Under the pieces are notes generated by a model. That model was not told the origin of the DNA, did no database searches, and saw only the letters and a program-made list of their open reading frames with translations. Positions 2 through 28,820 of a stretch of DNA of 28,945 nucleotides are shown here, in pieces (within the stretch, counting starts at the first letter, position 1; each line of letters starts with the position of its first letter). The position numbers and the translations under genes are program-made. The stretch spans positions 1 to 28,945 of the IMG/VR virus record IMGVR_UViG_3300021411_000018. One strand, 5' to 3'. This stretch comes from a virus (Duplodnaviria > Caudoviricetes).

Positions 2-226
2 AGCCCCGACCGCCTCCAAAAGGTGATCGATGTCCTGTACCGCTCTGCGGTCGGGACGGGTGATGTGGCGGCGGCGAAGCAGTTCCTTCTGTACGCCGAG
101 AAGCTGATGCCACCGAAGACGGTCCAGCGTGACGCCTCGGTGGCGCACATGACCGATGTCGAGCTGCGGGCCGAGGTCGAGGGGATTCTCGCTGGCGGGT
201 TCGGTGACGTGGACCCCGCCCCGTGA
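2..226 (+). CDS. Putative terminase small subunit, C-terminal part (5' truncated by window edge)
   Basis: Frame is open from position 2 (SPDRLQKVIDVLYRSAVGTGDVAAAKQFL...); helical; stop overlaps the TerL start (GTGA at 223-226). Assignment is mainly positional. Confidence 0.6.
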   Translation, partial: SPDRLQKVIDVLYRSAVGTGDVAAAKQFLLYAEKLMPPKTVQRDASVAHMTDVELRAEVEGILAGGFGDVDPAP

Positions 227-1116
227 ATCAACACACTCACACCGTTGAGGGTGATCGGGCACGGATCGAGGAGCTTCGTGCCGAGATGCTGTTTCGCATC
301 TACGCACGTGACGAGATCGCGTTCCTCGAAGACGTGTGGGCGATCGCCACACCCGCGAGCGGGAAGCAACTGTTCAAGCTGCGTGACTCGCAGCGCTACG
401 CGCTTAACCACTTCGAAACCAATAGGTATTCCCTCACGTTGAAGGCACGGCAGATCGGCTGGTCGACGCTGGTCGCTGCTCATGCTTTCTATTCAGCGTT
501 CTTTGGTGACGCTCGCGAAATCATCTTTCTGTCGAGGGGTGAACGTGAAGCTACCCAGTTGATGACGAAGGTTAAGTACGGGTTCAAACATTTGCCTCAG
601 TGGCTGCTCGATAAGGGTCCGAACGTCAGAGCTGACCATCAACAAAGGATGATGTTTGATAATGGGTCGAGCATTGTATCTATGCCTTCCGCCAGCGATC
701 CCGCCCGAGGCTCTACAGCGTGGCTTGTGGTGGTGGATGAATGGGGGTTCCTCCCCAACGCTGAGGAAGCCTGGTCCTCGATCGAACCTGTGGCGGACAT
801 CGGCGGTCGAATCATTGGTCTGAGTACCGCTAACGGTGTCGGCAACTTCTTTCATCAACTGTGGGTTGATGCGGAGAACGGGCACAACAACTTCCAGACA
901 ATGTTTTTCCCGTGGTCAGCGAACGAGGACCGTGACGCTGACTGGTATGAGTCTAAGCGGGCGTCGATGTCTGAATGGCAGCTCGCCCAGGAGTACCCGA
1001 CGTCGGTAAACGACGCGTTCATCAAGTCGGGTCGCCCCTACTTTGATCTCACAACGATTCAGCGCAGGTCGGTTGATGTGAAGCCACCGAAGACAGGTCA
1101 TCTAGTCGCAGCCTAA
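223..1116 (+). CDS. terL: Terminase large subunit, N-terminal ATPase domain (split gene, part 1)
   Basis: Walker A region LKARQIGWST, Walker B LVVVDEWGF, coupling motif GLSTANG, QEYP motif; ends at TAA before any nuclease domain. Confidence 0.92.
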   Translation: MNQHTHTVEGDRARIEELRAEMLFRIYARDEIAFLEDVWAIATPASGKQLFKLRDSQRYALNHFETNRYSLTLKARQIGWSTLVAAHAFYSAFFGDAREIIFLSRGEREATQLMTKVKYGFKHLPQWLLDKGPNVRADHQQRMMFDNGSSIVSMPSASDPARGSTAWLVVVDEWGFLPNAEEAWSSIEPVADIGGRIIGLSTANGVGNFFHQLWVDAENGHNNFQTMFFPWSANEDRDADWYESKRASMSEWQLAQEYPTSVNDAFIKSGRPYFDLTTIQRRSVDVKPPKTGHLVAA

Positions 1117-1130
1117 GAAGGTGAAGTGAT

Positions 1131-1238
1131 ATGAACAATCTACTCGCACACGCCGATGGGGTTCCGCATAGCTTCTGGTGGATGATCATTGCGCTTGTAG
1201 CGATCGTGGTCGTGTTGAAGGTACTCGACCGCATCTAA
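1131..1238 (+). CDS. 35-aa single-pass membrane micro-protein between the two terL halves
   Basis: Hand translation MNNLLAHADGVPHSFWWMIIALVAIVVVLKVLDRI*; SD-like AAGAAGGTGA at 1115-1124; hydrophobic core FWWMIIALVAIVVVL; below the ORF-track length cut-off. Confidence 0.65.
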   Translation: MNNLLAHADGVPHSFWWMIIALVAIVVVLKVLDRI

Positions 1239-1256
1239 CTTCAAAGTAGATCGGTA

Positions 1257-1964
1257 ATGATACGTTTTGAAGTGAACGAGGGCGCCAAGTCGCCTGTGCA
1301 GATTTGGGCGATGCCCGATCCCACCCACAGGTACTGCATGGGTGCTGACGTCGCTGAGGGCCTGGACCACGGCGACTACAGCGACGCCTCTGTCCTTGAT
1401 GCGAACACAGGCGAACTGGTCGCCAAGTGGCACGGACACATCCCGCCACGTGAGTTCGCTGGTCAGCTCGACATGCTCGGTCGCTTCTACAACACGGCGC
1501 TACTCGGTTGCGAAGCGAACAACCATGGCCTCTCCACGATCGACGCTCTCAGGGATCTGCGTTACCCGAGGCTCTATCGCAGGCGTACGTACGGGGAGAC
1601 GCACAAGAAGCCGACGCTCAAGTGGGGTTGGTACACGGACCGCAGAACGAAACCGTTGATGATCGACGGGTTGGATCAGGCGATGCGTGACGACGCGATC
1701 ATCATCTACGACAGGCACACGTTCGGGGAGCTGCGCACGTACATCCGTGACGAGAAGGGCCAGCTCCATGGTTCACCACATGATGACCGTGTGATCAGTT
1801 TGGCGATTGCGGTGCAGATGTTGGAGTACGTCAACTCAAGCGAGATTGATGTGTTCGAGATCCGTGATGATCGTGGGACGTTCGATTGGTGGCTCAGGAA
1901 GGCGAGCGAGGCGGACGATCCTGAGGTTCATCCGATTGGTTTCCACCAGCGCCGACAGCCATAA
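1257..1964 (+). CDS. terL: Terminase large subunit, C-terminal RNase H-like nuclease domain (split gene, part 2)
   Basis: YCMGADVAEGLDHGDYS (first catalytic Asp), CEANNHG, GWYT, HDDRVISLAIA (last catalytic Asp) are typical of TerL nuclease domains. Confidence 0.9.
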   Translation: MIRFEVNEGAKSPVQIWAMPDPTHRYCMGADVAEGLDHGDYSDASVLDANTGELVAKWHGHIPPREFAGQLDMLGRFYNTALLGCEANNHGLSTIDALRDLRYPRLYRRRTYGETHKKPTLKWGWYTDRRTKPLMIDGLDQAMRDDAIIIYDRHTFGELRTYIRDEKGQLHGSPHDDRVISLAIAVQMLEYVNSSEIDVFEIRDDRGTFDWWLRKASEADDPEVHPIGFHQRRQP

Positions 1965-2103
1965 CAGCGCACCAGCCTGCGAACAGGAAGACACCGACCC
2001 CTTGGGCGTCGGTGAGGTTCACGTCAGGGTGGATCTGGTTGGCCAGGATAACGATGCACGCGGCAGCGAAGCCGACCGTGAACAGGAACTTGATTGCTCG
2101 CAT
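1894..2103 (-). CDS. Putative two-TM membrane protein, antisense to the late operon (start 2103 or 2115)
   Basis: MRAIKFLFTVGFAAACIVILA...GVGVFLFAGWCAVMAVGAG has two clear hydrophobic segments; overlaps the terL 3' end by 71 nt. Confidence 0.45.
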   Translation of the reverse strand: MRAIKFLFTVGFAAACIVILANQIHPDVNLTDAQGVGVFLFAGWCAVMAVGAGGNQSDEPQDRPPRSPS

Positions 2104-2194
2104 GTATTGCTCCAACTGTGAGAGGTGGTTTGACCCGATCAGGTGCCGTTGGCGGTGTCCTCACTGCGGGTGGAAGGAACACTGCTGCGGTTAG
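2102..2194 (+). CDS. 30-aa Cys-rich zinc-ribbon micro-protein
   Basis: MYCSNCERWFDPIRCRWRCPHCGWKEHCCG: CxxC...CPHCG...CC pattern; ATG at 2102 within track ORF 2012..2194. Confidence 0.6.
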   Translation: MYCSNCERWFDPIRCRWRCPHCGWKEHCCG

Positions 2195-2234
2195 CAAGTG
2201 CGGCGTCGATGTACCTTTCCATCGGGTCGTACGC

Positions 2235-2402
2235 TCAATGGGCCACGCCCTCGATGTCGTAGCGCACGAGCCTGATGCGGTGATCTCCCTCCGTCCATGA
2301 GATCTTCCAGATCTCGGGATCTTGTTCGGCCGCTTCGAATGCTTCCTTCAACGAGCTGACTCGTGGCAGGTCGCCTTCGTGTGTCCGTAGCTGTATCTCC
2401 AT
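2235..2402 (-). CDS. Hypothetical protein, antisense to the late operon (start 2402 or 2423)
   Basis: MEIQLRTHEGDLPRVSSLKEAFEAAEQDPEIWKISWTEGDHRIRLVRY has globular-like composition and fills an otherwise empty gap. Confidence 0.55.
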   Translation of the reverse strand: MEIQLRTHEGDLPRVSSLKEAFEAAEQDPEIWKISWTEGDHRIRLVRYDIEGVAH

Positions 2403-2416
2403 CGGAGCGACCCTAG

Positions 2417-2440
2417 TGGACATCCCTGCCTCTCAGTAGA
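2417..2440 (+). promoter_or_regulatory. Candidate late promoter motif copy 1 (TGGACA-N13-GTAGA)
   Basis: tggaca tccctgcctctca gtaga; precedes the 2465/2753/portal genes. Confidence 0.55.
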
Positions 2441-2464
2441 GATGCATCGCACTGGGAGTCCTCG

Positions 2465-2749
2465 ATGAACAAGGGTTCGTACAACAGCTCGGGTGAGGGC
2501 GCCAAGCCGTCGCTCGGCCTCAAGTCCTCGGCCAGCGGTTTCGCGCGGCCAGGTAAGCGAGCGGTGAAGAGCGCAGCCGCAGCTCCCGTCGCGTCGGCGA
2601 ACGGTAAGACGCCGCGTCCTGGCTACCCGCAGAAGGTACCGAAGGTAGCCGCTGGCCGCGGGTCTATTGCACGTCCAGGAGGCAACGAAGGGATCAGCGG
2701 GCGAGGGAACGCTTCGACTGGTTCGAGCCGCCCCAAGACCACGGGTTGA
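2465..2749 (+). CDS. Small basic G/S/A/K/R/P-rich protein (disordered; possibly DNA-associated in the virion)
   Basis: GGGAG SD upstream of ATG; 94 aa, strongly basic and low complexity; in register with the downstream genes. Confidence 0.65.
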   Translation: MNKGSYNSSGEGAKPSLGLKSSASGFARPGKRAVKSAAAAPVASANGKTPRPGYPQKVPKVAAGRGSIARPGGNEGISGRGNASTGSSRPKTTG

Positions 2750-2752
2750 CCG

Positions 2753-2968
2753 ATGGTCGAATGGCTGCACACGGAGTGTGCGGACGATCCGCACCCGTGC
2801 TTTGCGTGCAAATCGAGGTATTGGCGCAAGCACGGGATGAGCCTTTCCGTGCCGCAGACGTGGTCTGACGGTCCCACGGGCCGTGAGCAGGAGTATGAGG
2901 CTCGCACGCAGGCGGAAGCGTCGGGTCGTCCGTTCGACCTTGCAGACGACAAGTACAAGCATTGGTGA
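2753..2968 (+). CDS. Hypothetical protein with H/C metal-binding motif, pre-portal
   Basis: HTEC...CFAC; 3-nt spacing to both neighbours. Confidence 0.7.
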   Translation: MVEWLHTECADDPHPCFACKSRYWRKHGMSLSVPQTWSDGPTGREQEYEARTQAEASGRPFDLADDKYKHW

Positions 2969-2971
2969 TTT

Positions 2972-4879
2972 GTGCCCCGTGAGTCGAAGCAGAAGGCGCT
3001 AGACCGCTACCGAGGGCTTGTCGATAACGCCATCAGGTTCCGTGACGAAGAAGGTTACGACGATCTGTGGTGGCGCATGATCGACATGTACCGAGGGAAG
3101 CATGTCGTTGAACTGACCCGTGAGGATCGCATCACGGTCAATATCAGCTTCGGCACCATCAACGTTATCTATCCCTCGGTGTCCGTGAACTATCCGAAGA
3201 TCACGGTTAACCCGAACGAGCCTGAGAACGAAGACCCAGCGGTCATCATTGAAGCTCTCGTGAACTGGCAGTGGAAGCACTACGAGTTCCAGCCCGAGTT
3301 CCGTGAAGCCGTGAAGGATTGGCTACTGCTCGGTCACGGCTGGGTGAAGGTCGGGTACATCTACCAGGAGAAGCCTGTACCGCTCACCGCTGACGAGATG
3401 GATGAGCAGTACGAGGTTCAGGTCGCTGAGGCGGACGATTACGCGGCATCGAACCCCGAGATGGCCGCGGAGCTCCCCACGGATGAAGAGATCCGTGAGC
3501 ATCTGACTGACACGCAGATGGTCGCAATGCAGGATCAGCCGTTCGTGGAACGGGTCAGTCCGTTTGACATGTACGTCGATCCCGCCGCTACCCGTTTGCA
3601 GGACGCCCGTTGGATTGCTCAACGGATTGTCCGTCCTCTTGCTGAGGTGCGTGCCGACAAGGATTACAAGAAGTCGGTTCGTGAATCGGTCAAGGGCGAC
3701 ATGCAGTCGTACACGCAGCGCGACGACAAGCAGTGGCGCCGCAAAGAGAACCTGAACAACCCTGAGCAGGAGTACTGCACGATCTGGGAGTTCTACGACC
3801 TCGGCGGACAGACCATGTGTGTGTGGGCTGAGGGCGCCGATCAGTACCTGGTCGACGCGCACGAGCTGCCGTTTGCGTTCGGTCACCCGTACGTGATGCT
3901 CCGCAACTACGACGTGCCCGAGTACTTCTACCCGATGGGTGATCTTGAATCTATCGAGTCGCTGCAATCTGAGCTGAACAAGACCCGTTCACAGATGATG
4001 CAGGCTCGTAAGAAGTTTGCTCGCAAGTACCTGTACAAGGAATCGGCTTTCGACAAGTCGGGCCGCGAGGCTCTTGAGTCGGACGTCGACAACACGTTTG
4101 TGCCTGTGTCTGATGAGGGCACGCCGTTTGTTGATCTTGTGCAGCCGTTGCAGCAGGTCCCCGTACCTCCCGAGATCTACAACTACACGTCAGTGATCGA
4201 ACAGGACATCGCGACCGTGACGGGCGTGTCCGAGTACCAGCGTGGTCAGACATCGGAGACACGTCGTACCGCTACGGAAGCGGCGATCATTTCCGATTCG
4301 ATCAGTGCTCGTGCTGCTGACAAGTTGGCCGTGATCGAGAACACGTTGTCGCTTGTCGCTCGCCGTGTTGTACAGGTCACTCAACAGTTCACTACGGGCG
4401 AGCAGGTGTTCAGGGTTGTTGGCGCCGACGGGGCGATGATTTGGGTTCCGTGGAGCCGCGAGGAAATCCAAGGCGAATACGACTTCGAGATCGAGGCTGG
4501 TTCTACTCAGCCGATGAACGAGACGGTCAGACGTCAAACGGCGGTTGCCGTGTCGCAGGCGATGGCGCCGTTCATCCAAATGGGTGTCGTTGACCCGATG
4601 GCGCTGGCTCGCTACATGCTGCAATTTGGTTTCGGCATTAAGAACCCCGAGAAGTTCTTGACACAACCAATGCCGATGATGGGACCCGAAGGGATGCCTC
4701 CCGAGGGCATGCCACCTGACGGTTCGATGCCTGGTGTTGGCGGCGGTCAGGGTCCACCTATGGGCAGTGGCTACATCGACAGCGAGACAGGCAATACCGC
4801 TAACCAAGAACTTGAGCAGATCCCGCCCGAGCTGCGTCAGCAGTTGTTCGGGCAGGTCGGCCTCGCTAACCCGAGTTAA
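2972..4879 (+). CDS. Portal protein (P22/podovirus-like)
   Basis: 635 aa after the terminase; LLGHGWVKVG, ERVSPFDMYVDP, TGVSEYQRG, TATEA, IQGEYDFEIEAGST; M/P/G-rich disordered tail. Confidence 0.88.
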   Translation: MPRESKQKALDRYRGLVDNAIRFRDEEGYDDLWWRMIDMYRGKHVVELTREDRITVNISFGTINVIYPSVSVNYPKITVNPNEPENEDPAVIIEALVNWQWKHYEFQPEFREAVKDWLLLGHGWVKVGYIYQEKPVPLTADEMDEQYEVQVAEADDYAASNPEMAAELPTDEEIREHLTDTQMVAMQDQPFVERVSPFDMYVDPAATRLQDARWIAQRIVRPLAEVRADKDYKKSVRESVKGDMQSYTQRDDKQWRRKENLNNPEQEYCTIWEFYDLGGQTMCVWAEGADQYLVDAHELPFAFGHPYVMLRNYDVPEYFYPMGDLESIESLQSELNKTRSQMMQARKKFARKYLYKESAFDKSGREALESDVDNTFVPVSDEGTPFVDLVQPLQQVPVPPEIYNYTSVIEQDIATVTGVSEYQRGQTSETRRTATEAAIISDSISARAADKLAVIENTLSLVARRVVQVTQQFTTGEQVFRVVGADGAMIWVPWSREEIQGEYDFEIEAGSTQPMNETVRRQTAVAVSQAMAPFIQMGVVDPMALARYMLQFGFGIKNPEKFLTQPMPMMGPEGMPPEGMPPDGSMPGVGGGQGPPMGSGYIDSETGNTANQELEQIPPELRQQLFGQVGLANPS

Positions 4880-17640: not shown

Positions 17641-17748
17641 ACTGATCTCACCAACGAAGACGAGTCGAAGTGGTCGTTTGACGACTATGTGGCCGACGAC
17701 GAAGCGCCCGAAGGCGAAGCTGATGAAGGCGCCCCCGATGGCGACTAG
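17638..17748 (+). CDS. 36-aa highly acidic micro-protein
   Basis: Hand translation MTDLTNEDESKWSFDDYVADDEAPEGEADEGAPDGD*; overlaps the endolysin start by 11 nt. Confidence 0.55.
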   Translation: MTDLTNEDESKWSFDDYVADDEAPEGEADEGAPDGD

Positions 17749-18388
17749 CGCAGCGACACGAGGATGGGGCAAAGCCCCCGCACCCAGGAGCAGCATCGTC
17801 ACGCTACGGCGAGCAGACGGCCTGGCACTCCCTGTCCATACCGACATCGCCAGTCTTGTCGCATGGCTGTGCGATGAAACCGAGCGGCGAGGGTACGACC
17901 TGAACCCTGCGTGGTGTTGGGGCTATGCCCCTCGCAAGGTTCGAGGCTCAAAGACTGTGTGGTCGAACCACGCATGGGGTCTGGCGATTGACCTGAACGC
18001 ACCCGCTAATCCCCTGACCGAGAATGGCAAGGTCGTCTCGGACATGCCTGCGTGGGTGCCTCAGTTGTGGAAGTCGTATGGCTTCGGTTGGGGTGGCGAC
18101 TACCCAGGTGCCCGCAAGGATCCGATGCATTTCGAGTTCCTTGGCACCAAGGCTGACGCTGCACGGTTCACGCTGCAAACCAAGACGGCACGACCTGCGC
18201 TCAAGCTCGGGTCAATCGGTGAAGCTGTGAAGCTCTTGCAGGCCCGTCTCAACGCCCACGGCGCCAAGCTCAAGGTTGACGGTCTGTTCGGACCGAAGAC
18301 CCATGACGTTGTGCGCTGGTTCCAGGGCACGAAGGGTCTGGTCATTGACGGGATTGTGGGGCCTCGGACATGGAAGGCCCTCGGTTGA
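17738..18388 (+). CDS. Endolysin: M15-family Zn peptidase plus C-terminal peptidoglycan-binding domain
   Basis: SNHAWGLAIDLN (SxHxxGxAxD), WGGDY, DPMHFE; C-terminal LKLGS.GEAVKLLQARL...VDGLFGPKT..VV..FQ...GL.IDGIVGPRTW is PG_binding_1-like. Start set at ATG 17738 (MATSAATRGWG). Confidence 0.9.
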   Translation: MATSAATRGWGKAPAPRSSIVTLRRADGLALPVHTDIASLVAWLCDETERRGYDLNPAWCWGYAPRKVRGSKTVWSNHAWGLAIDLNAPANPLTENGKVVSDMPAWVPQLWKSYGFGWGGDYPGARKDPMHFEFLGTKADAARFTLQTKTARPALKLGSIGEAVKLLQARLNAHGAKLKVDGLFGPKTHDVVRWFQGTKGLVIDGIVGPRTWKALG

Positions 18389-19173: not shown

Positions 19174-19619
19174 GAGTTGACCCAACCCTGCTGGAAAGCT
19201 TCTTTCCAACTGATCCGTTCGCTGAGGGTTCGGTTCATGTCAATGAGCGGCTGTAGGCCCTTGAACTGACCCTGACGCGGTTGGCTGCTGATCATCAACG
19301 GTCGCTGGGCCGTGATCGTCGCGGGATGTTCGGGAACGAAGAACGGCTTGTTGCTACTCAAGCGGAAGTACGAGCCGAACTGATTGTCCGACGGCCTTTG
19401 GGAGATGTCGCCAAGTGACACGATGCGGGTCTTGCCGTTGTGACCGTGGATCGCCTTCACGCTCTCGATGGAGTCCCAGCACACTGACGACTTGTGCTCG
19501 CCAACGAGCCACCGCATGACGACATGTCCGTCTGGAAACTGCAAGCCAGCGGCAACGACACCTGATCCCGACACCCCCGTTTCGTCTTCGTCTCGTACGA
19601 GTAGGAAGATGTTGATCAT
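19170..19619 (-). CDS. Conserved-type phage hypothetical protein
   Basis: F.L.RDEDETGVSG.GVVA.G..F.DG.V..RW...S...WDSI..V..IHGH.G.T pattern recognised from actinophage hypothetical proteins, plus a C-terminal extension. Confidence 0.7.
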   Translation of the reverse strand: MINIFLLVRDEDETGVSGSGVVAAGLQFPDGHVVMRWLVGEHKSSVCWDSIESVKAIHGHNGKTRIVSLGDISQRPSDNQFGSYFRLSSNKPFFVPEHPATITAQRPLMISSQPRQGQFKGLQPLIDMNRTLSERISWKEAFQQGWVNS

Positions 19620-20272
19620 GCTGCTTTCACCAGTTCTTTCGGAGAGTCATCGTTCTCGCACGTGACCTTGAACAACTGCCCGCTCGCTTGATGCCTCACA
19701 ACGATGCCCTCAGGGTTGCCATAACCAGGAGCGGCAAGGCTTCCCTCGGTCTGGAGCTCGCTGAGCGCTACCTTGATCCTCGTGGTACAGAACCTTGGGT
19801 GAACGAGCAGCGTGGGCACAACGTCCAGGCCGACGTCGACAAGGTGTTGGTCGAACAGCTCTTCGCTATCCCAGCGGTGGACGTTGAAGAGAGAAAGCCG
19901 CTTCTCCGTCATGCCGTAGCCACGCTGTATCCCTTGACCCCACCATTCGCCAAAGTGTCTACCGACGCTTAGACCCTCTACGAGGGTGTCGGCGTGGGTC
20001 TTGACCCAGTCAGCGAAACCATGGTTATCGGCCTCGGGTGTGATGAGACGCTTACGGGACTGAGCGAAGACACCCACCAACCCCTCATAGGGCTGCTGGT
20101 TCTCGTCGGTCAGCTCCGTGAACGTCGCTGTGATCATCTGTGGATGTAGGTCGCCTGGTTCGAGTTCCCTGATGATGATGGCGGCGTTGGTGCCGTCGAT
20201 CTTCTCGGTGATGACCATTTCACGGTTGAGTCGTGGGATCTTCGGCCACGCACAGAACAAGTCGTTCATCAT
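19616..20272 (-). CDS. RNA ligase (Rnl2-type nucleotidyltransferase domain)
   Basis: Motif I TEKIDGTN, AQSR, motif III FGEWWG, IIIa LSLFN, IV PEGIVV, V LFKV. Confidence 0.82.
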   Translation of the reverse strand: MMNDLFCAWPKIPRLNREMVITEKIDGTNAAIIIRELEPGDLHPQMITATFTELTDENQQPYEGLVGVFAQSRKRLITPEADNHGFADWVKTHADTLVEGLSVGRHFGEWWGQGIQRGYGMTEKRLSLFNVHRWDSEELFDQHLVDVGLDVVPTLLVHPRFCTTRIKVALSELQTEGSLAAPGYGNPEGIVVRHQASGQLFKVTCENDDSPKELVKAA

Positions 20273-23325: not shown

Positions 23326-23664
23326 TCAACACGCCAACGCCACAAGCAGACGTGTGATCTGCCTGTCGTTGTCGTACGCCGTGCCTTGTAGACCGTCCAT
23401 TACGAGTTTCGCGTAGTTGTCGACGTCACCTTGAAGCTTGAACCTACGAGGGCCGTCGTCTTCCAGAAGGACATGAGTCTTGTCAGGGTGCAGCCACAAC
23501 GACATGCTCAGCGGTCCCTCGAACGTGGGTCCGTCGTACGCTGCTGCTAACGCCTTCTCTGCTTCGATGGTGCCTTTGGGTGTGTAGAGCTTGCCGCCCT
23601 GCTTCCCGCTTCGAGGGCGCTCTTTGACGTATGGCTTGCTGTGATACCAGAAGTCGTACAGCAT
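23326..23664 (-). CDS. rusA: RusA-family Holliday junction resolvase
   Basis: KERPR, YTPK.T, GDVDNYAKLVMDGL, YDNDRQI: the DxDNxxKxxxD and D.D.QI RusA motifs. Confidence 0.88.
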   Translation of the reverse strand: MLYDFWYHSKPYVKERPRSGKQGGKLYTPKGTIEAEKALAAAYDGPTFEGPLSMSLWLHPDKTHVLLEDDGPRRFKLQGDVDNYAKLVMDGLQGTAYDNDRQITRLLVALAC

Positions 23665-23775
23665 CTAATGCCAGTCCCCGTAGAACATGGCGAAGAACGC
23701 GAGCAGTACAGTGGCGATGCTGACGATGATAAAGAAGTCTTTCGTCGCGTCCCACATGGTTACGAGCATCATCAT
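23665..23775 (-). CDS. 36-aa single-TM micro-protein
   Basis: Hand translation MMMLVTMWDATKDFFIIVSIATVLLAFFAMFYGDWH*; TGATG overlap with the primase stop; abuts the rusA start. Confidence 0.6.
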   Translation of the reverse strand: MMMLVTMWDATKDFFIIVSIATVLLAFFAMFYGDWH

Positions 23776-24734
23776 CAGTACCAGCTATCTCTTTCGGAGA
23801 CGACTTTCTCAACGATTTCCGCTATGCGAACATCGCCGTCGCCTCGTTGGGTGTACTTTCCCCAATGCTCATCGGCTTTATGCACGACGAGTGCGATTTC
23901 TTCTGGTATGTGTGAACCGTCCCTTGCGATACGGCCAGCTAATGCCACCAAAGCGGATGATCTGTCTGACGTCTTTGGTCCGTTCTCGAAGAGTCTCCGA
24001 GCGTCTTTGCTCAGTCGCTCCAACAGTTCGTCGGTTGAGTCGTAGTTCTCGTTTGCGACGTAGACGGTTTGCTGTCCGATCGGTGGCGGCGGGTGGTATC
24101 TACTTGCTAGCTCCGCTAGTTCGACTGGTTCGCAGCGGTTGTCCCAAGCATCCATGACGAACATGCGTAGAGGAATGGTGTGACCGCTAAGGCCATCGAC
24201 CATCCAACGCTTCTCCTGGTTGCTGGGTTCGTCTTGCAGTTCGTCGTATAGCAGCCCTGCTGGGTATGGGAGACGGACGTAGTTTCCGACTTGTCCTTCG
24301 TCTAGCGATACCTGCTTCGGGTTGATCTCTTTTGTCGGAGCACCAACGAACTCGCACGAGTACAGCAGGGCGTGCCGCATGATCTTCGGGTTGATCCATT
24401 CGGTACAGAACACCCATACGTGGTAGCCCTTGCTGCGCGACCGTTCGATCCAAGACACGATGTCGTGGCATTGCAGGAAGTAGGCGACCTGTACGGCGTC
24501 AGTCCAGCTCATTTCGCCGTTATCGAAATCGATGCAGCCCCATTTGCACAGACCGTCGCGAGGGTCGATGGGGTAGGCGCCGATCGGTTCCGACTCCCCC
24601 GTCAAGTGAGCTTCGGCAGCGTCAATCCACCATTCGATCGTTTCGACACTGCCGCCGTCGTCGGTACCGAGACGATCGCCGTTGCCCTCGAACAGAGCGG
24701 CGAAGAGGTCAATGACCAGTTCGTCGTTATCCAC
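23775..24734 (-). CDS. Archaeo-eukaryotic primase (AEP) superfamily primase
   Basis: Motif I CKWGCIDFD, motif II ERSRSKGYHVWVF, motif III region GNYVRLPY; helical C-terminal domain with DRS; near the helicase. Confidence 0.8.
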   Translation of the reverse strand: MDNDELVIDLFAALFEGNGDRLGTDDGGSVETIEWWIDAAEAHLTGESEPIGAYPIDPRDGLCKWGCIDFDNGEMSWTDAVQVAYFLQCHDIVSWIERSRSKGYHVWVFCTEWINPKIMRHALLYSCEFVGAPTKEINPKQVSLDEGQVGNYVRLPYPAGLLYDELQDEPSNQEKRWMVDGLSGHTIPLRMFVMDAWDNRCEPVELAELASRYHPPPPIGQQTVYVANENYDSTDELLERLSKDARRLFENGPKTSDRSSALVALAGRIARDGSHIPEEIALVVHKADEHWGKYTQRGDGDVRIAEIVEKVVSERDSWY

Positions 24735-24966
24735 GAGCTACTTCTGTCGTGCGGAGCTGACCAGCTCCACCGCTACCTTCTCGCGGCCAACGATGCTGGC
24801 AATCGGGACACATCCATTCGACAGTCATGTCACGGGCCGTGGAGTAGATGCCAATCAGACGAGAGAAATGCGTCTTCGTTCCGTAGTACTTGCGGGATTC
24901 TTCACGGATCGGTTCGGCACGCCAGTCGGCTCCGCATTCGGGGCAGTCGTACGTGTCGGTGTTCAT
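24727..24966 (-). CDS. Zinc-ribbon hypothetical protein
   Basis: CPECG...WMCPDC; ATGA overlap upstream. Confidence 0.7.
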   Translation of the reverse strand: MNTDTYDCPECGADWRAEPIREESRKYYGTKTHFSRLIGIYSTARDMTVEWMCPDCQHRWPREGSGGAGQLRTTEVARG

Positions 24967-25121
24967 GACACCTCCCGAGGATCTTCACCGAACAAAAGGA
25001 ACTTGCATTCCATGTTGTTCTCCACTGCGTAGCGGAGAGCCTTGATTTCGGTCTTGAACACTCGGAACGCTGACCAGTCGTTGTAATAGGTCAGCCACAT
25101 GCCGTCGTCGGCGGTCATCAT
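24963..25121 (-). CDS. 52-aa hypothetical protein
   Basis: Hand translation MMTADDGMWLTYYNDWSAFRVFKTEIKALRYAVENNMECKFLLFGEDPREVS*; ATGA overlaps at both ends. Confidence 0.7.
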   Translation of the reverse strand: MMTADDGMWLTYYNDWSAFRVFKTEIKALRYAVENNMECKFLLFGEDPREVS

Positions 25122-26071
25122 GACGCCTTCCTAAGGTTGTCGTCTGCCCGCAACGAACGGATCTTTCCCGTGGCACCATCGAAGAACATGTCGACCACGG
25201 TCGTCTCACCACGCTTGTTCTTACACAACGACAGTGTGATCGTGTTCTTGTACTGATCACGCATCTGCCGTGACAACGACTCGTTGTCGGCACGCTGACA
25301 TACACCGATCATGAACGTCGCCTCACGTTCACCGCCCCACACCATGTCGTGGATACGAGGGACCTTTCCTCGCTTCTCCTCGTTCTTGTGGGACTGCTGA
25401 ATGCAGATGACGGGTAGCCGTTCCAATTTGGTGAACGCCTTGACGCCTTTGGCGGCGGCGCCCTCATCGGTAAACCCTGGGATCGAACCGAGGTAGTCGA
25501 TCATCACCAGGTCAAGTTCTCGTTGGCGTAGGTCTTCGAGCTTGTGACGTACACCAGCGATGTCCTTCAACGTGATGGACGTGTCGATCACTGACAGGTT
25601 CGGGAACTCTTTGGTTGCCGCTTTGCGCAGCAGCCGTACCGCATCGTTGTCTTTCGCTTTGATGCGATCTTCGAAGTCACGGCGTCGCAGCCCGTGCTTG
25701 ATGCACAGCAACTTGACAAGGACGTCCTCTGCGATTTCGTCGGGTGTTACGTACAGGATGTGCTTCTCACGGTTGTGTACGACGGACTGCAACGCCACCC
25801 ACGTCTTGCCTTGCTGGACCTGACCGAAGACGAACGTGAGGTCACCTTTACCTGTGCCTCGCATCATCAAGTCGAGTTCGTGGATGCCGAGCATGATTCG
25901 ACCATCGGGGTTCTGTACGTAGTCGATGAAGTTGTCAGCTACCTCACTTAACGGTCGGACGTGAGGTACGCGGGATTTGAGTTGCGCCGCGGAAGCCTTC
26001 GCCTCCGCGGCGTCTCGGTCTGCGATCCGCTCCCGTATGTCAGCTATCTCGGGGAGGGTCGCCACGCTCAT
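25118..26071 (-). CDS. DnaB-like (SF4) replicative helicase, ATPase domain only
   Basis: LD.MM.G...GDL..V.G, Walker A GQVQQGKT, Walker B VMIDYLG, CIQQ, LCKNKRG arginine-finger region. Confidence 0.82.
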   Translation of the reverse strand: MSVATLPEIADIRERIADRDAAEAKASAAQLKSRVPHVRPLSEVADNFIDYVQNPDGRIMLGIHELDLMMRGTGKGDLTFVFGQVQQGKTWVALQSVVHNREKHILYVTPDEIAEDVLVKLLCIKHGLRRRDFEDRIKAKDNDAVRLLRKAATKEFPNLSVIDTSITLKDIAGVRHKLEDLRQRELDLVMIDYLGSIPGFTDEGAAAKGVKAFTKLERLPVICIQQSHKNEEKRGKVPRIHDMVWGGEREATFMIGVCQRADNESLSRQMRDQYKNTITLSLCKNKRGETTVVDMFFDGATGKIRSLRADDNLRKAS

Positions 26072-26289
26072 GCGAGCTCCCAGTCCTCCGCAAAGAGGTC
26101 ACCCTGAGAGGCGAGCCACGGGACACGATCGCCTGTGACAGTGATGATGTAGATGTAGGGCAGGGTGTTGGCTGAATCGTCGTCGGGGAACTGGACCTTG
26201 ATGTACTGGTTGGGTCCGTTCCAACCTCTGCGGTTGACACGTTCACCTTCCTTGAGGGCGTTCAGCGCCCACTCAAAGTTCATCAACAT
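26068..26289 (-). CDS. tad2: DUF2829 / Tad2-like anti-defence signal-sponge protein
   Basis: MNF..AL..LK.G..V.R.GWNG...YI ... PYI ... VPW.ASQ.D..AEDW is the DUF2829 signature. Confidence 0.82.
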   Translation of the reverse strand: MLMNFEWALNALKEGERVNRRGWNGPNQYIKVQFPDDDSANTLPYIYIITVTGDRVPWLASQGDLFAEDWELA

Positions 26290-26654
26290 CAGCGCTCCAG
26301 CAGGTCCTCGATGACGCCCACGAGGCGGCGCACCAGTTCACGTTCCTTTGACACTTCGACGACCTTGTCGAGGAGCTGATCCTTCAAATCAAGGACGTTG
26401 TCGTCTTCCATCTGGCGTTCCAGATCGATGAGGAACAGGTCCTCGTCGGTGGGATCATCGATATCGAACAGCGGGAACATCGGGAAGTCGCCTGTTCCCT
26501 CGTCACGCACGTCGCCGTAGTCGATGATGTTGTGCTTGAGGATCTCCCACTCGTCGTTCTTGAGTGTGATGAACTTGCCGCTCTGGTCGTCCCGCTGGAA
26601 ATGCAGACGGACAGAACCGTTGTCGAGATCCGTCTTTTCGATCGTCGGGTTCAC
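26289..26654 (-). CDS. Acidic hypothetical protein
   Basis: GTGA overlap sets the start at 26654 (VNPTIEK...); C-terminal coiled coil. Confidence 0.65.
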   Translation of the reverse strand: MNPTIEKTDLDNGSVRLHFQRDDQSGKFITLKNDEWEILKHNIIDYGDVRDEGTGDFPMFPLFDIDDPTDEDLFLIDLERQMEDDNVLDLKDQLLDKVVEVSKERELVRRLVGVIEDLLER

Positions 26655-26818
26655 TTGTTGTCTAGCTCCTTGAGTACAGCCCGCACACGTGTCGCTAGCC
26701 ATTCGGCAGCGGCGTTCAGGTTCTCATCTGAACCTTTGATCGTCCACGACTCAGACGGCCAATGCGTGCAGCCGATGTTGTCGAGGTACTGTTTCGCAGC
26801 GTTCTCTAGAAGGTCCAT
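26651..26818 (-). CDS. 55-aa hypothetical protein
   Basis: Hand translation MDLLENAAKQYLDNIGCTHWPSESWTIKGSDENLNAAAEWLATRVRAVLKELDNK*; GGGG upstream; GTGA overlap downstream. Confidence 0.6.
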   Translation of the reverse strand: MDLLENAAKQYLDNIGCTHWPSESWTIKGSDENLNAAAEWLATRVRAVLKELDNK

Positions 26819-26840
26819 AGACGCGCAATCCCCGCAGTTG

Positions 26841-27108
26841 ATTGTGGGTTCGCCGCCTAGGACGCCGCTGAAACGGTATTGCCCTTAAGTGTTTCAGCAG
26901 CCTCCAAAGAGGCGAACCCACGATGGTCGGGTTGGTGGATGAGGCGAAGGAGGAAACCCCACCCCCAACCCAGCTAGCAGCGTTCAGTGAAGTCCAGAGC
27001 CTTCCGCATTCGGACCGTTGAAGTCGGTCGCTCAGCTCCGACACGGGCGCGGTTCTCTTCTGCTGGCACAGGTCGCGCAGTACTACATCACTGATCGCTC
27101 TAGCGATC
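26841..27108 (-). ncRNA. Candidate structured non-coding RNA / cis-element (four consecutive hairpin domains)
   Basis: Inverted repeats at 27093-27108, 26996-27039, 26929-26971 (loop UUCCUCCUUC) and 26841-26924; the only long gap in an otherwise overlap-coupled arm. Confidence 0.5.
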
Positions 27109-27644
27109 TAGTCGATCCAGAAGGCAACCCCGCTCGACTTGTGCTTGAAGTCGGGAGACGAGGGCTTCGGCTTGTCGTTGCGGTTGTCGTAGAACTCGTG
27201 AGGGAAGGCGTCGTAACGATCCTTCGCCCACTGAGTGTTCGCAGCGGCCTGAGCCTTCTCGATGTCGTTCATCTGCGCACGAGGCTTCCGCAAGACCGTG
27301 GGGTCATACGGCGGCTCGGCAGCCACGCTCGAAGCAGAAGCTTCGGGCTGGGTGGGAGCAGCCGTTTCGACCACGGCATCGGGGAAGGCCCGTTGCATGA
27401 TCTCCATCGGGATACCTGAATCGGACAGCTCCGTGTCGATACCGAGCACGTCGTACACCCACGACTTCGCCTCAAGCGATGCCTCACGGGCACGAGACAG
27501 GTTCTCGTCACTGCTCCCGTCAGGGTCGATCAGATACTGGACCCGATGCGAAAACGTGTCCGTCTCGTACGGTCGGAGCTGGGTCGTCTTACGGAAGTCC
27601 ACTTCCCCTACGAGGTAGGCGGGCTTCTCTTCGACCATCGTCAC
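27108..27644 (-). CDS. Putative ssDNA-binding/recombination protein with C-terminal PDF motif
   Basis: C-terminus W....DAFPHEFYDNRNDKPKPSSPDFKHKSSGVAFWID, after an A/P-rich linker; near the exonuclease. Confidence 0.65.
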   Translation of the reverse strand: MTMVEEKPAYLVGEVDFRKTTQLRPYETDTFSHRVQYLIDPDGSSDENLSRAREASLEAKSWVYDVLGIDTELSDSGIPMEIMQRAFPDAVVETAAPTQPEASASSVAAEPPYDPTVLRKPRAQMNDIEKAQAAANTQWAKDRYDAFPHEFYDNRNDKPKPSSPDFKHKSSGVAFWID

Positions 27645-27898
27645 CAGACGTCCGAGGGGTCAGTGCCCGTCAGGTCCGCGACCTTGGCGTTGTACGTCTT
27701 CTCGACAGCGGTGACGGCGAAGCGGCGAGCGGAGTCGAGGCGGTTGAACGCAGCGACGTTCTCGTTACGGGTCTTCGACAGCACCTCGCGCTTGTCGTGG
27801 TACTCCGTGTCCAGGGCGTCGATCGCCTCGGTCATGGCTCGGTCGGCTTCCTTGATGCCGTCGGTGATCAGATCGAGCAGGGAAGTGGGGGCAGTCAT
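27641..27898 (-). CDS. Hypothetical helical protein
   Basis: AAGAGG upstream; 85 aa; GTGA overlap downstream. Confidence 0.7.
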   Translation of the reverse strand: MTAPTSLLDLITDGIKEADRAMTEAIDALDTEYHDKREVLSKTRNENVAAFNRLDSARRFAVTAVEKTYNAKVADLTGTDPSDVW

Positions 27899-27986
27899 TG
27901 CGTTACGTGTTCCTCTTGTGCTAGGCCCGCCACCCGCTTACCGACATCAACTTCCCGTCGTTTGCAGTTGCGAAACATGACCGTTA

Positions 27987-28820
27987 TCACAACGTCACGA
28001 GTTGGGGGGTGGATGCATACGCCAACACCGCCCCCTTGCATGTACCCCAAGCAGGACACCAGTCGGCGCTACAGAGGGCGTGCTGATCGTTCGTCGGCCA
28101 CGGAGCCGACGCCGACTCGTACGTGTTCACGACGTTCCAGCACTGCTCTTCCAACCACCCCCACTCGCGTGGCCCACGTGTCGTGGTGAGGACACCAGAA
28201 ACGCAGGGTGTCCGTTGCATCGCTACCCACGTGAACGGGACGGGCGTGTCCTCGAAGTAGCCGAGCTGGTGCGCGGCCCACGTGTAGGGTCCTGGCTGAA
28301 TCCCCCAGCGTTGGAGCTGCCAGCCTTCGAGCGTGAACTTCGACAGGCGACTGCATGTCTTCCAGTCGTACACGGATGTCTCGTCAATGAAGTCGATGCA
28401 TCCTGCGAGACGAATGACGGTGCGGCCGCGTCGGCTGAACTCAAGATCGAAGGACAGTTCGACGGCGAGGGGTTCCCCGAGGTGACGCCAGATGTCGCGG
28501 AGCCACGTGTTGAAGCAGTTGGTTATGTGCTGCTCCGACGTCTTGGCTGTCTTGACCTTCACCCAGCGGAAGTCAGAAGCCTCTGAGAGGTCCCTGAATT
28601 GGCGTATGGCGGCCTCCAAGGCGTCGGAGGGGGCATCACCGCCACTGAGCCGCTCTATGGCCGTGTGGGTAGCTGTCCCGATCGCCGCCTCAGCGGACGT
28701 GAAGTCGTCGGCCTCACCCCACCACAGTTGCCGTGCCCGCTCGGGACACAACGTGTACGTGCCGAGATCCGACTGATGAATCGTGTAGGTGGTGACACCA
28801 CCGTAAGTTGATACGTCCAT
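27987..28820 (-). CDS. Cas4/RecB-like PD-(D/E)xK exonuclease with Fe-S cysteines
   Basis: N-terminal LCP, IGTATH, GCIDFID, YDWKT, Q...Y, C-terminal CSADWCPAWGTC (1+3 Cys arrangement). Confidence 0.85.
   Translation of the reverse strand: MDVSTYGGVTTYTIHQSDLGTYTLCPERARQLWWGEADDFTSAEAAIGTATHTAIERLSGGDAPSDALEAAIRQFRDLSEASDFRWVKVKTAKTSEQHITNCFNTWLRDIWRHLGEPLAVELSFDLEFSRRGRTVIRLAGCIDFIDETSVYDWKTCSRLSKFTLEGWQLQRWGIQPGPYTWAAHQLGYFEDTPVPFTWVAMQRTPCVSGVLTTTRGPREWGWLEEQCWNVVNTYESASAPWPTNDQHALCSADWCPAWGTCKGAVLAYASTPQLVTL

What the first reader, a model, noticed from the sequence alone, without database searches (positions are those of the whole stretch)
223..1964. Terminase large subunit split at the ATPase/nuclease hinge, with a membrane micro-gene in the gap
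Seen: the ATPase ORF ends ...KPPKTGHLVAA-TAA (1116) and the nuclease ORF starts MIRFEV... (1257) in another frame. The 140-nt gap holds an intact 35-codon ORF with its own SD and one TM helix. All catalytic motifs of both halves are intact, so this does not look like decay or a 1-nt sequencing error. Known: TerL is usually one polypeptide, and interruptions are typically inteins or group I introns; neither is evident here. Inference: either a two-subunit packaging motor whose halves associate in trans, or a continuous protein restored by recoding. A matched GCC codon lies just before the TAA (1111) and in frame at 1284, the geometry a ribosomal hop needs, but that is speculative.
Basis: partly seen in the sequence, partly recalled or inferred. 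Interest (0 to 1): 0.8.

Follow-up and report, generated by a model that had tools for sequence, protein, structure and literature searches.

The report
Two-chain phage terminase cut past hinge
This soil phage, like many uncultured relatives, encodes its DNA-packaging enzyme as two separate genes with a tiny passenger gene between them, and the two halves are predicted to re-join by docking a short tail of the motor half onto the cutter half, which would let them work although a related T4 enzyme cut at its hinge cannot pump DNA.

Summary
The split is real: contigs from four runs (two samples) bridge the junction without a difference, and a relative at 85%/83% identity is cut at the same place and keeps the 35-codon membrane gene. 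Both halves are under purifying selection (dN/dS about 0.1) and no residue is missing against joined homologues. The state is lineage-wide: all 120 best ATPase homologues listed are ATPase-only, with two cut sites about ten residues apart and variable small genes in the gap. The ribosomal hop is not supported: the GCC pair is chance-level, absent in relatives, gaps take all three frames, and the hop would delete ten residues. The cut lies about 23 residues past the hinge, in a predicted beta-hairpin of the nuclease domain; a complex model docks exactly that ATPase tail on the nuclease (score 0.76, best control 0.20). Best reading: a two-chain terminase re-joined by fragment complementation. 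Two-gene terminases are already reported in Arthrobacter cluster AY phages (a dissimilar terminase), and this scan noted split terminases 16 times on other DNA. New variant; interest moderate.

The parts
2..226 (+). 3' end of the upstream gene, probably the small terminase (by position); its TGA overlaps the ATPase GTG start
   Evidence: full 152-aa ORF in L055; 81% identical in relative G001; only a weak HTH hit below cut-off for the relative's copy, so TerS is inferred
223..1116 (+). TerL ATPase chain, 297 aa; carries the hinge-like motif (269-274) plus a 23-residue tail ending in conserved P-x-x-G-x-L-V
   Evidence: Terminase_6N and PHROGs; dN/dS 0.089 against L002; P289 and G292 in 15 of 15, L294 and V295 in 14 of 15 type I ATPases, chain ends 4-8 residues from that G
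1021..1113 (+). Predicted docking segment (ATPase residues 267-297): hinge, short helix and one beta-strand that belong structurally with the nuclease domain
   Evidence: all confidently placed ATPase-side interface residues of the complex model lie in 267-297; equivalent helix 265-270 and strand 277-285 in the joined homologue's model
1117..1124 (+). Shine-Dalgarno-like GAAGGTGA, 6 nt before the micro-gene ATG
   Evidence: sequence; function not tested
1131..1238 (+). 35-codon gene for a predicted single-pass membrane peptide; conserved in the near clade only; one of several different small genes found in this gap
   Evidence: 37-aa homologue in L001/L002 at 63% identity, dN/dS 0.146 on 35 codons; hydropathy 2.5; no Pfam/PHROG hit; a 30-letter loose end in run X1 reads as the same C-terminus with its stop overlapping a nuclease start
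1257..1964 (+). TerL nuclease chain (RNase H fold), 235 aa, own ATG, no clear Shine-Dalgarno, 18 nt after the micro-gene stop
   Evidence: PHROGs/Pfam; dN/dS 0.113; homologues start at the same M-x-x-F position; model pLDDT 83.8
2972..4879 (+). Portal gene (SU10/P22-like), showing an intact packaging and head module downstream
   Evidence: Pfam SU10_portal E 4.5e-30; scaffold and major head PHROGs further on

Best explanation
The large terminase of this phage is encoded as two genes kept by selection, whose products are likely translated separately and are predicted to re-form one enzyme when the last 30 residues of the ATPase chain dock into the nuclease chain. Shown: the split, its conservation, purifying selection on both halves, no residue lost, own start codons across relatives, variable small genes in the gap. 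Predicted: the cut falls in the turn of a beta-hairpin that follows the hinge, so the ATPase chain keeps the hinge, a helix and one strand, and these pack onto the nuclease (fragment complementation); the mechanical path from ATPase through hinge to nuclease would thus survive without a peptide bond. Inferred: once cut, the junction became a slot for small passenger genes joined by overlapping stop/start codons; the membrane micro-gene is most likely such a passenger, not a motor part, and its reading frame likely also hands ribosomes on to the nuclease gene, which lacks a clear ribosome-binding site.
For: Reads/contigs bridge the junction unchanged in 4 of 4 runs. L001/L002 (one sequence, 85%/83% identity) cut at the same place, gap 312 nt. 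dN/dS 0.089 and 0.113, like neighbouring genes (0.084-0.104). Hinge-to-first-nuclease-motif distance 23+28 = 51 residues against 48-59, median 50, in 101 of 120 joined proteins that could be measured. 120 of 120 listed ATPase homologues (search range 163-520 aa; 726 hits in all) are 289-393 aa: 15 cut like the window (type I), 105 about ten residues later (type II). Of 80 metagenome loci kept (of 138), 79 are split and 1 lacks the nuclease in the fetched DNA. Relatives 97% and 95% complete hold only the two halves. Type II nucleases start at ATG/GTG 16-17 codons before the first motif in 67 of 67 distinct loci; GGAG/GAGG/AGGA upstream in 70 of 104 junctions against 163 of 1643 control windows; in-frame stop within 5 codons upstream in 31 of 104. 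Model of joined P0264 (pLDDT 87.5): strands 277-285 and 288-293 form the hairpin; type I cuts its turn, type II the next loop. Complex model: score 0.76, best of 3 controls 0.20 (mark reached by 116 of 157 solved and 2 of 215 mismatched pairs; counts hold only roughly as my own alignments were used); runs agree in at least 96% of contacts, partner pLDDT at least 77; ATPase-side interface 267-297 only. Gap cargo differs: 2 ORFs in L137, 3 in L138, a 43-aa cysteine-pair ORF in L244/L256, a ferredoxin in L293.
Against: No RNA or protein data; translation and binding are not shown. Halves of a split gene tend to pass the complex test by likeness to solved single-chain terminases (T4 gp17 is the top fold match), so the pass is weak independent evidence. 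T4 gp17 split at its linker kept ATPase and nuclease activity but lost translocation (PMC3012670, passage), and the isolated P74-26 nuclease neither binds nor cuts DNA (PMC5389665, passages): a two-chain motor must solve this, and the docking solution is a model only. The SD enrichment in type II overlaps the conserved Glu-Phe codons, so protein constraint may explain part of it; the motif used favoured M/V/L at the start position. The relay role of the micro-gene rests on geometry only (18-nt gap here, 194 nt plus another 39-codon ORF in L002). The window itself is 75% complete, so a second terL in its missing part was not excluded directly.
Confidence: 0.85

Rival explanations
1. Two working chains that do not form a stable 1:1 complex: the ATPase ring pumps DNA on its own and the nuclease is recruited only for cutting, through DNA, portal or small terminase.
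For: In P74-26 the ATPase domain alone grips DNA and the nuclease is dispensable for binding (PMC5389665, passages). Cut position differs between types I and II, and nuclease identity to type II relatives (42-52%) is lower than ATPase identity (60-66%).
Against: The ATPase tail ends with conserved P-x-x-G-x-L-V at the very C-terminus in 15 type I proteins, as expected for a docking strand; the nuclease's first ten residues are a strand in the joined model but not in the lone nuclease model; complex model places the tail in the nuclease. The ATPase/nuclease identity gap is also seen against joined relatives, so it is not split-specific.
Confidence: 0.09
2. A continuous protein is restored by recoding (ribosomal hop at matched GCC codons, frameshift or read-through) or by RNA splicing.
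For: GCC at 1111 and in frame at 1284 exist. Bypassing of 7-10 nt blocks has been proposed for Streptomyces phage Hau3 terL (PMC10732093, passages). Type II genes overlap by 4-32 nt, a geometry frameshifting could use.
Against: Chance of such a match within 16 codons is about 0.3; absent in L002, L137, L138; gaps cover all three frames; hop product 41 residues against a joined minimum of 48 and loses the conserved Phe. Type II overlaps fall in two frames (46 and 21 of 67) and many have an in-frame stop just before the nuclease start. No Rfam match in the gap of window or L002; gap RNA folds no better than shuffles (z -1.38 and +1.09); gap contents are unrelated coding ORFs; no intein-sized segment at either end.
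Confidence: 0.03
3. The membrane micro-gene is a functional third component of packaging (for example anchoring the motor to the membrane or timing packaging) and not a passenger.
For: Kept in place across a synonymous distance above 1 with dN/dS 0.146; a likely third copy at the same junction; co-transcription implied by position.
Against: Absent from the gaps of L137, L138 and all type II loci, which have other or no cargo; the peptide has almost no soluble domain; a DNA pattern from its C-terminus found only the L001/L002 phage in viral contigs.
Confidence: 0.08
4. Artefact or decay: a mis-assembly or a dead terminase gene.
For: The window is a metagenomic, 75% complete, linear record.
Against: Bridged unchanged in two samples; same cut in diverged relatives; dN/dS about 0.1; only terL pieces present in 95-97% complete relatives.
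Confidence: 0.01

Closest known systems
Arthrobacter cluster AY phages (BillyTP, BlueShadow): TerL ATPase and nuclease domains in two consecutive genes
   Same: Two ORFs, ATPase then nuclease, in cultured viable phages (PMC11920828 and PMC12820723, passages; BillyTP annotation 600-1679 and 1663-2259).
   Different: Dissimilar terminase (best BLASTP 23% over 88 aa, E 0.004), so a separate origin is inferred; genes overlap by 17 nt with no cargo; siphovirus-type head module against an SU10/P22-like portal here. Cluster AT has two TerL-related genes, 4 and 10, several genes apart (PMC5513430, passage); I did not examine their sequences.
T4 gp17-type single-chain large terminase (Pfam Terminase_6N/6C; PDB 3cpe, 3ezk)
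   Same: Top sequence and fold match of the joined family (E 1e-53; Foldseek E 1.6e-31); same ATPase, hinge, RNase H order.
   Different: One polypeptide; hinge 354-364 (PMC3074133, passages); splitting at the linker abolished translocation (PMC3012670), whereas the natural cuts here lie 23 or about 32 residues past the hinge-like motif. Matching SGRPYF to the T4 hinge is my inference from position and the models; the HMM alignment is poor there.
Streptomyces phage Hau3 terL with proposed translational bypassing
   Same: Interrupted terL in a phage, recoding proposed.
   Different: 7-10 nt UUA-led inserts inside conserved junctions (PMC10732093); here gaps are -32 to +442 nt, coding, in any frame, with an own start codon.
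Fractured genes with split inteins and free-standing homing endonucleases (including one terminase locus)
   Same: Gene in two pieces with a foreign ORF between (PMC2677866, passages).
   Different: No intein halves (ATPase ends 23 residues after the hinge motif, nuclease begins in register) and no endonuclease-sized ORF in the gaps examined.

Membership tests
T4 gp17-type large terminase | N-terminal ASCE ATPase with Walker A/B and coupling motif | tested here: met
   Terminase_6N above cut-off; K74, R76, D172, E173, S201, T202 invariant. The P-loop reads K-A-R-Q-I-G-W-S family-wide, joined members included.
T4 gp17-type large terminase | C-terminal RNase H-fold nuclease with acidic triad | tested here: met
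   PHROG terminase hits, Terminase_6C below cut-off; D31, E86, D176, D177 invariant in 46 homologues; joined model matches G20c, RB49, P74-26 nuclease domains.
T4 gp17-type large terminase | Both domains in one polypeptide joined by a hinge | tested here: not met
   Two ORFs, 140-nt gap; works like one, but is not single-chain at DNA level.
T4 gp17-type large terminase | ATP-driven packaging and DNA cutting activity | not testable with these tools
   needs biochemistry
Cluster AY-type two-gene terminase | ATPase and nuclease domains in separate consecutive genes | tested here: met
   same order; one small gene between them here, none in most type II loci
Cluster AY-type two-gene terminase | Descent from the AY terminase | tested here: not met
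   BillyTP gp2/gp3 give only marginal BLASTP matches; one AY phage tested
Translational bypassing (T4 gene 60 / Hau3 type) | Conserved matched take-off and landing codons restoring the full protein | tested here: not met
   match absent in 3 of 3 other type I loci; product 10 residues short
Translational bypassing (T4 gene 60 / Hau3 type) | Stimulatory RNA structure at the take-off site | tested here: inconclusive
   window 1090-1300 z -1.38, 23 of 200 shuffles as stable
Group I/II intron-split terL | Intron RNA fold in the gap | tested here: not met
   no Rfam match at E<=5 in the gap of window or L002; gap absent in most relatives
Split-intein fractured gene | Intein N- and C-halves at the cut ends | tested here: not met
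   two chains sum to the joined length, 51 against median 50; no intein Pfam hit

The most novel reading that the evidence does not exclude
One T4-gp17-like phage family has cut its terminase at least twice independently, each time just past the hinge in loops of the same nuclease-side beta-hairpin, so that the ATPase chain keeps the hinge and grips the nuclease by a donated strand: a natural, swappable two-chain packaging motor that shows the covalent link is dispensable only when the hinge is kept, with passenger micro-genes in the gap tuning how much nuclease is made.
Probability: 0.35. Interest if true: 0.65.

Novelty: new variant of a known kind. Interest (0 to 1): 0.42.

Why it matters
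Models of the T4-type motor give the ATPase-nuclease hinge a mechanical role, and T4 gp17 cut at the linker stops pumping DNA. A natural two-chain enzyme from the same structural class, cut in a defined loop past the hinge, makes it directly testable whether the peptide bond, the hinge or only a docked nuclease is needed for translocation and for end cutting, and allows nuclease-free or mixed rings to be built without engineering. It also matters for annotation: a large group of uncultured phages will be mis-scored as having broken or partial terL, a common phylogenetic marker. The two-gene state itself is not new.

Tried and rejected
Ribosomal hop, frameshift, intron and intein readings: tested and rejected. 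RNA evidence: no RNA holder listed. Promoter/terminator scan of 900-3000: no promoter, one terminator-like site at chance level. Micro-gene family: too short for the locus search; Atlas feature hits 0.77-0.78, under the lead threshold; no Pfam/PHROG hit; local tblastn over fetched loci found only the L001/L002 phage; DNA pattern likewise. Independent origin of the two cut types: the ATPase tree of 68 rows (thinned from 255 proteins; 9 dropped for lacking my anchor motifs) puts type II among joined proteins (98/93) apart from 12 of 13 type I rows (100/95), 3 changes, but the AU test does not reject one origin (p 0.095); the nuclease tree (38 rows, 47 candidates dropped) is unresolved (p 0.38); an earlier tree without close joined rows showed one split side. 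Host: no WhiB in 5 of 5 records; type II loci occur in an Acidimicrobiaceae bin but also in a bin labelled Methanobacteriota, so the host is not established. BlueShadow's record was not held. The VIA structural alignment that would give the nuclease-domain boundary could not be run. In one search three loci (L007, L011, L034) were labelled split only because the contig ended; they are in frame and counted as joined. Paper searches for this lineage's split found no description; the library lacks most subscription journals, and I read no supplements, so cluster AY/AT papers or SEA-PHAGES notes not held may say more.

Full report
Observation. Both large ORFs match terminase families and sit between a probable small terminase gene and an SU10/P22-like portal, scaffold and major head gene of a podovirus-like record of 28,945 bases, 75% complete. 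In 4 of 4 runs that hold the stretch (two samples, one possibly the source) a contig bridges the junction with no differing letter, gap or joint, so it is not a mis-assembly.

The near relative. L001 and L002 (identical over the region, so one phage) encode ATPase and nuclease at 85% and 83% identity, cut at the same place with a 312-nt gap; the micro-gene is there too (37 aa, 63% identical) followed by a further 39-codon ORF whose stop abuts the nuclease ATG. dN/dS is 0.089 for the ATPase, 0.113 for the nuclease and 0.146 for the micro-gene at dS above 1, like neighbouring genes. That record (97% complete) and a type II record (95%) hold only the two halves when searched with a profile of joined terminases.

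How common. The first viral scan gave 42 loci: 2 split (that phage), 39 joined at about 50% identity, 1 without the nuclease in the fetched DNA. The metagenome scan kept 80 of 138 loci: 79 split, 1 incomplete. All 120 listed ATPase homologues (of 726; lengths 163-520 searched) are 289-393 aa. Joined proteins of 521-562 aa exist at up to 63% identity, and among the 150 best 50%-cluster representatives about 129 are 400 aa or longer (counted by eye), so the single chain is the wider, ancestral state. Two further viral scans gave, by nuclease profile, 72 joined, 3 split and 5 one-half loci of 80, and by ATPase profile 76 split, 2 joined and 2 one-half loci of 80.

Two cut sites. Type I (window; 15 of 120 proteins) ends the ATPase a few residues after G-x-L and starts the nuclease at M-x-x-F. 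Type II (105 of 120) ends about ten residues later, after E-F-R, and starts the nuclease at M-L/S-x-V-W with overlaps of 4, 7, 8, 20 or 32 nt. In a model of joined P0264 (pLDDT 87.5) the hinge-like S-G-x-P-x-F is followed by a helix (265-270), a hairpin (277-285, 288-293) and a strand (303-305); type I cuts the hairpin turn and type II the loop after it. The window's chains sum to 51 residues between hinge motif and first nuclease motif, against 48-59 in 101 of 120 joined proteins measured: nothing is lost. The ATPase tree places type II among joined proteins, apart from type I (3 changes), but one origin is not rejected (AU p 0.095) and the nuclease tree is unresolved. Two fissions are likely, not shown.

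Recoding. A match of the last codon within 16 codons has about a 0.3 chance; the match is absent in L002, L137 and L138; their gaps and the window's (312, 374, 442, 140 nt) cover all three frames; a GCC hop would leave 41 residues and remove the conserved Phe strand. Type II overlaps fall in two frames (46 and 21 of 67), 31 of 104 junctions have an in-frame stop within five codons before the nuclease start, and 70 of 104 have an SD core against 10% of control windows, though this overlaps conserved codons. Rfam finds nothing in the gap and it folds like shuffles. Bypassing proposed for Hau3 terL concerns 7-10 nt blocks (PMC10732093; passages read). I reject recoding.

Mechanism. The complex model of the two window chains scores 0.76 against a best control of 0.20 (mark reached by 116 of 157 solved and 2 of 215 mismatched pairs; roughly valid, own alignments); runs agree in at least 96% of contacts, partner pLDDT at least 77. 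Its confident ATPase-side contacts are residues 267-297 only, the tightest being 289-292 with nuclease 14-17. Halves of a split gene can pass by likeness to solved single chains such as T4 gp17, so this supports but does not show binding. Independent of the model, P289, G292, L294 and V295 are conserved at the very end of 15 type I ATPases, and the nuclease's first ten residues are not a strand when folded alone. T4 gp17 split at its linker lost translocation (PMC3012670; passage; hinge 354-364 in PMC3074133; passages), and the lone P74-26 nuclease neither binds nor cuts DNA (PMC5389665; passages). The natural cuts leave the hinge-like segment on the ATPase chain, which I infer is why they are tolerated.

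The gap. It is a cargo slot: two ORFs in L137, three in L138, a 43-aa cysteine-pair ORF in L244/L256 and a ferredoxin (Fer4_15, E 9e-17) in L293, mostly chained by overlapping stop and start codons. The membrane micro-gene is confined to the near clade among loci I could read. A 252-nt, depth-3 contig in run X1 shows 30 letters that read as the micro-gene's end with its stop overlapping a GTG nuclease start: a single weak hint that the micro-ORF passes ribosomes to the nuclease gene, which has no clear SD in the window. The peptide's own function is untested; a passenger membrane peptide is my best guess.

What is known. Cluster AY phages encode the two domains in consecutive genes (PMC11920828, PMC12820723; passages); BillyTP's terminase is dissimilar to this one. 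Cluster AT has two TerL-related genes (PMC5513430; passages). A split-intein terminase locus is described (PMC2677866; passages). The jumbo-phage review PMC7824862 (passages) had nothing on split terL. Searches (listings) showed no paper on this lineage or on the position of natural cuts; the library is incomplete and no supplements were read. Earlier notes of this scan list 16 split-terminase findings on other genomes, several with a cargo slot (8 shown, unchecked); none was found by sequence, by place or with the docking-tail wording.

Verdict. Real, old and selected; a two-chain terminase at about 0.85. The kind is known, the lineage, the two cut sites past the hinge and the predicted docking tail are the additions. 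New variant of a known kind; interest 0.42.

Noticed in passing
L293:1112-1393: A 93-aa ferredoxin gene (Fer4_15) sits between the ATPase and nuclease genes of a type II phage, and begins with the same 10 letters as the nuclease gene, as if inserted with a short duplication.
   Followed up: partly
L057-L134, L217-L296: A large group of phages (type II, 60-68% ATPase identity) has the terminase cut about ten residues later than the window, nearly always as overlapping genes; one locus is in an Acidimicrobiaceae bin (L296), one in a bin labelled Methanobacteriota (L295).
   Followed up: yes
window 1965-2971: Four small ORFs separate nuclease and portal: a cysteine-pair ORF 2012-2194 and a reverse-strand ORF 2235-2423 (no match in relative G001), and a basic Gly/Ala/Ser/Lys-rich 94-aa ORF 2465-2749 and a 71-aa ORF 2753-2968, both conserved in G001 (86%, 71%; dN/dS about 0.09) without a family hit.
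   Followed up: partly
window 26068-26289 (-): Thoeris anti-defence Tad2-like gene (Pfam E 1e-25), not found in relative G001.
   Followed up: no
window 19616-20272 (-): RNA ligase gene (Pfam E 2e-11), not found in relative G001.
   Followed up: no
window 23326-28820 (-): Replication module: RusA, archaeo-eukaryotic primase domain, DnaB-like helicase, PD-(D/E)XK nuclease; endolysin with M15 peptidase and peptidoglycan-binding domains at 17678-18388.
   Followed up: no
window 439-468 (ATPase residues 73-82): The P-loop reads L-K-A-R-Q-I-G-W-S-T, with Trp where T4 gp17 has Lys; this holds for joined and split members alike.
   Followed up: no
L002:2701-3000: The relative's ATPase ORF has an open, low-complexity Pro/Gly/Ser/Ala-rich stretch of about 100 codons upstream of the conserved start region; whether it is translated is unknown.
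   Followed up: no
P0381, P0393, P0405, P0456, P0480, P0496: More distant (33-43%) proteins of ATPase-only length, 278-316 aa, may mark further fissions or may be fragments; no DNA was read.
   Followed up: no
L073: One type II ATPase has an in-frame stop near its C-terminus before the G-x-L strand; error or decay not examined.
   Followed up: no
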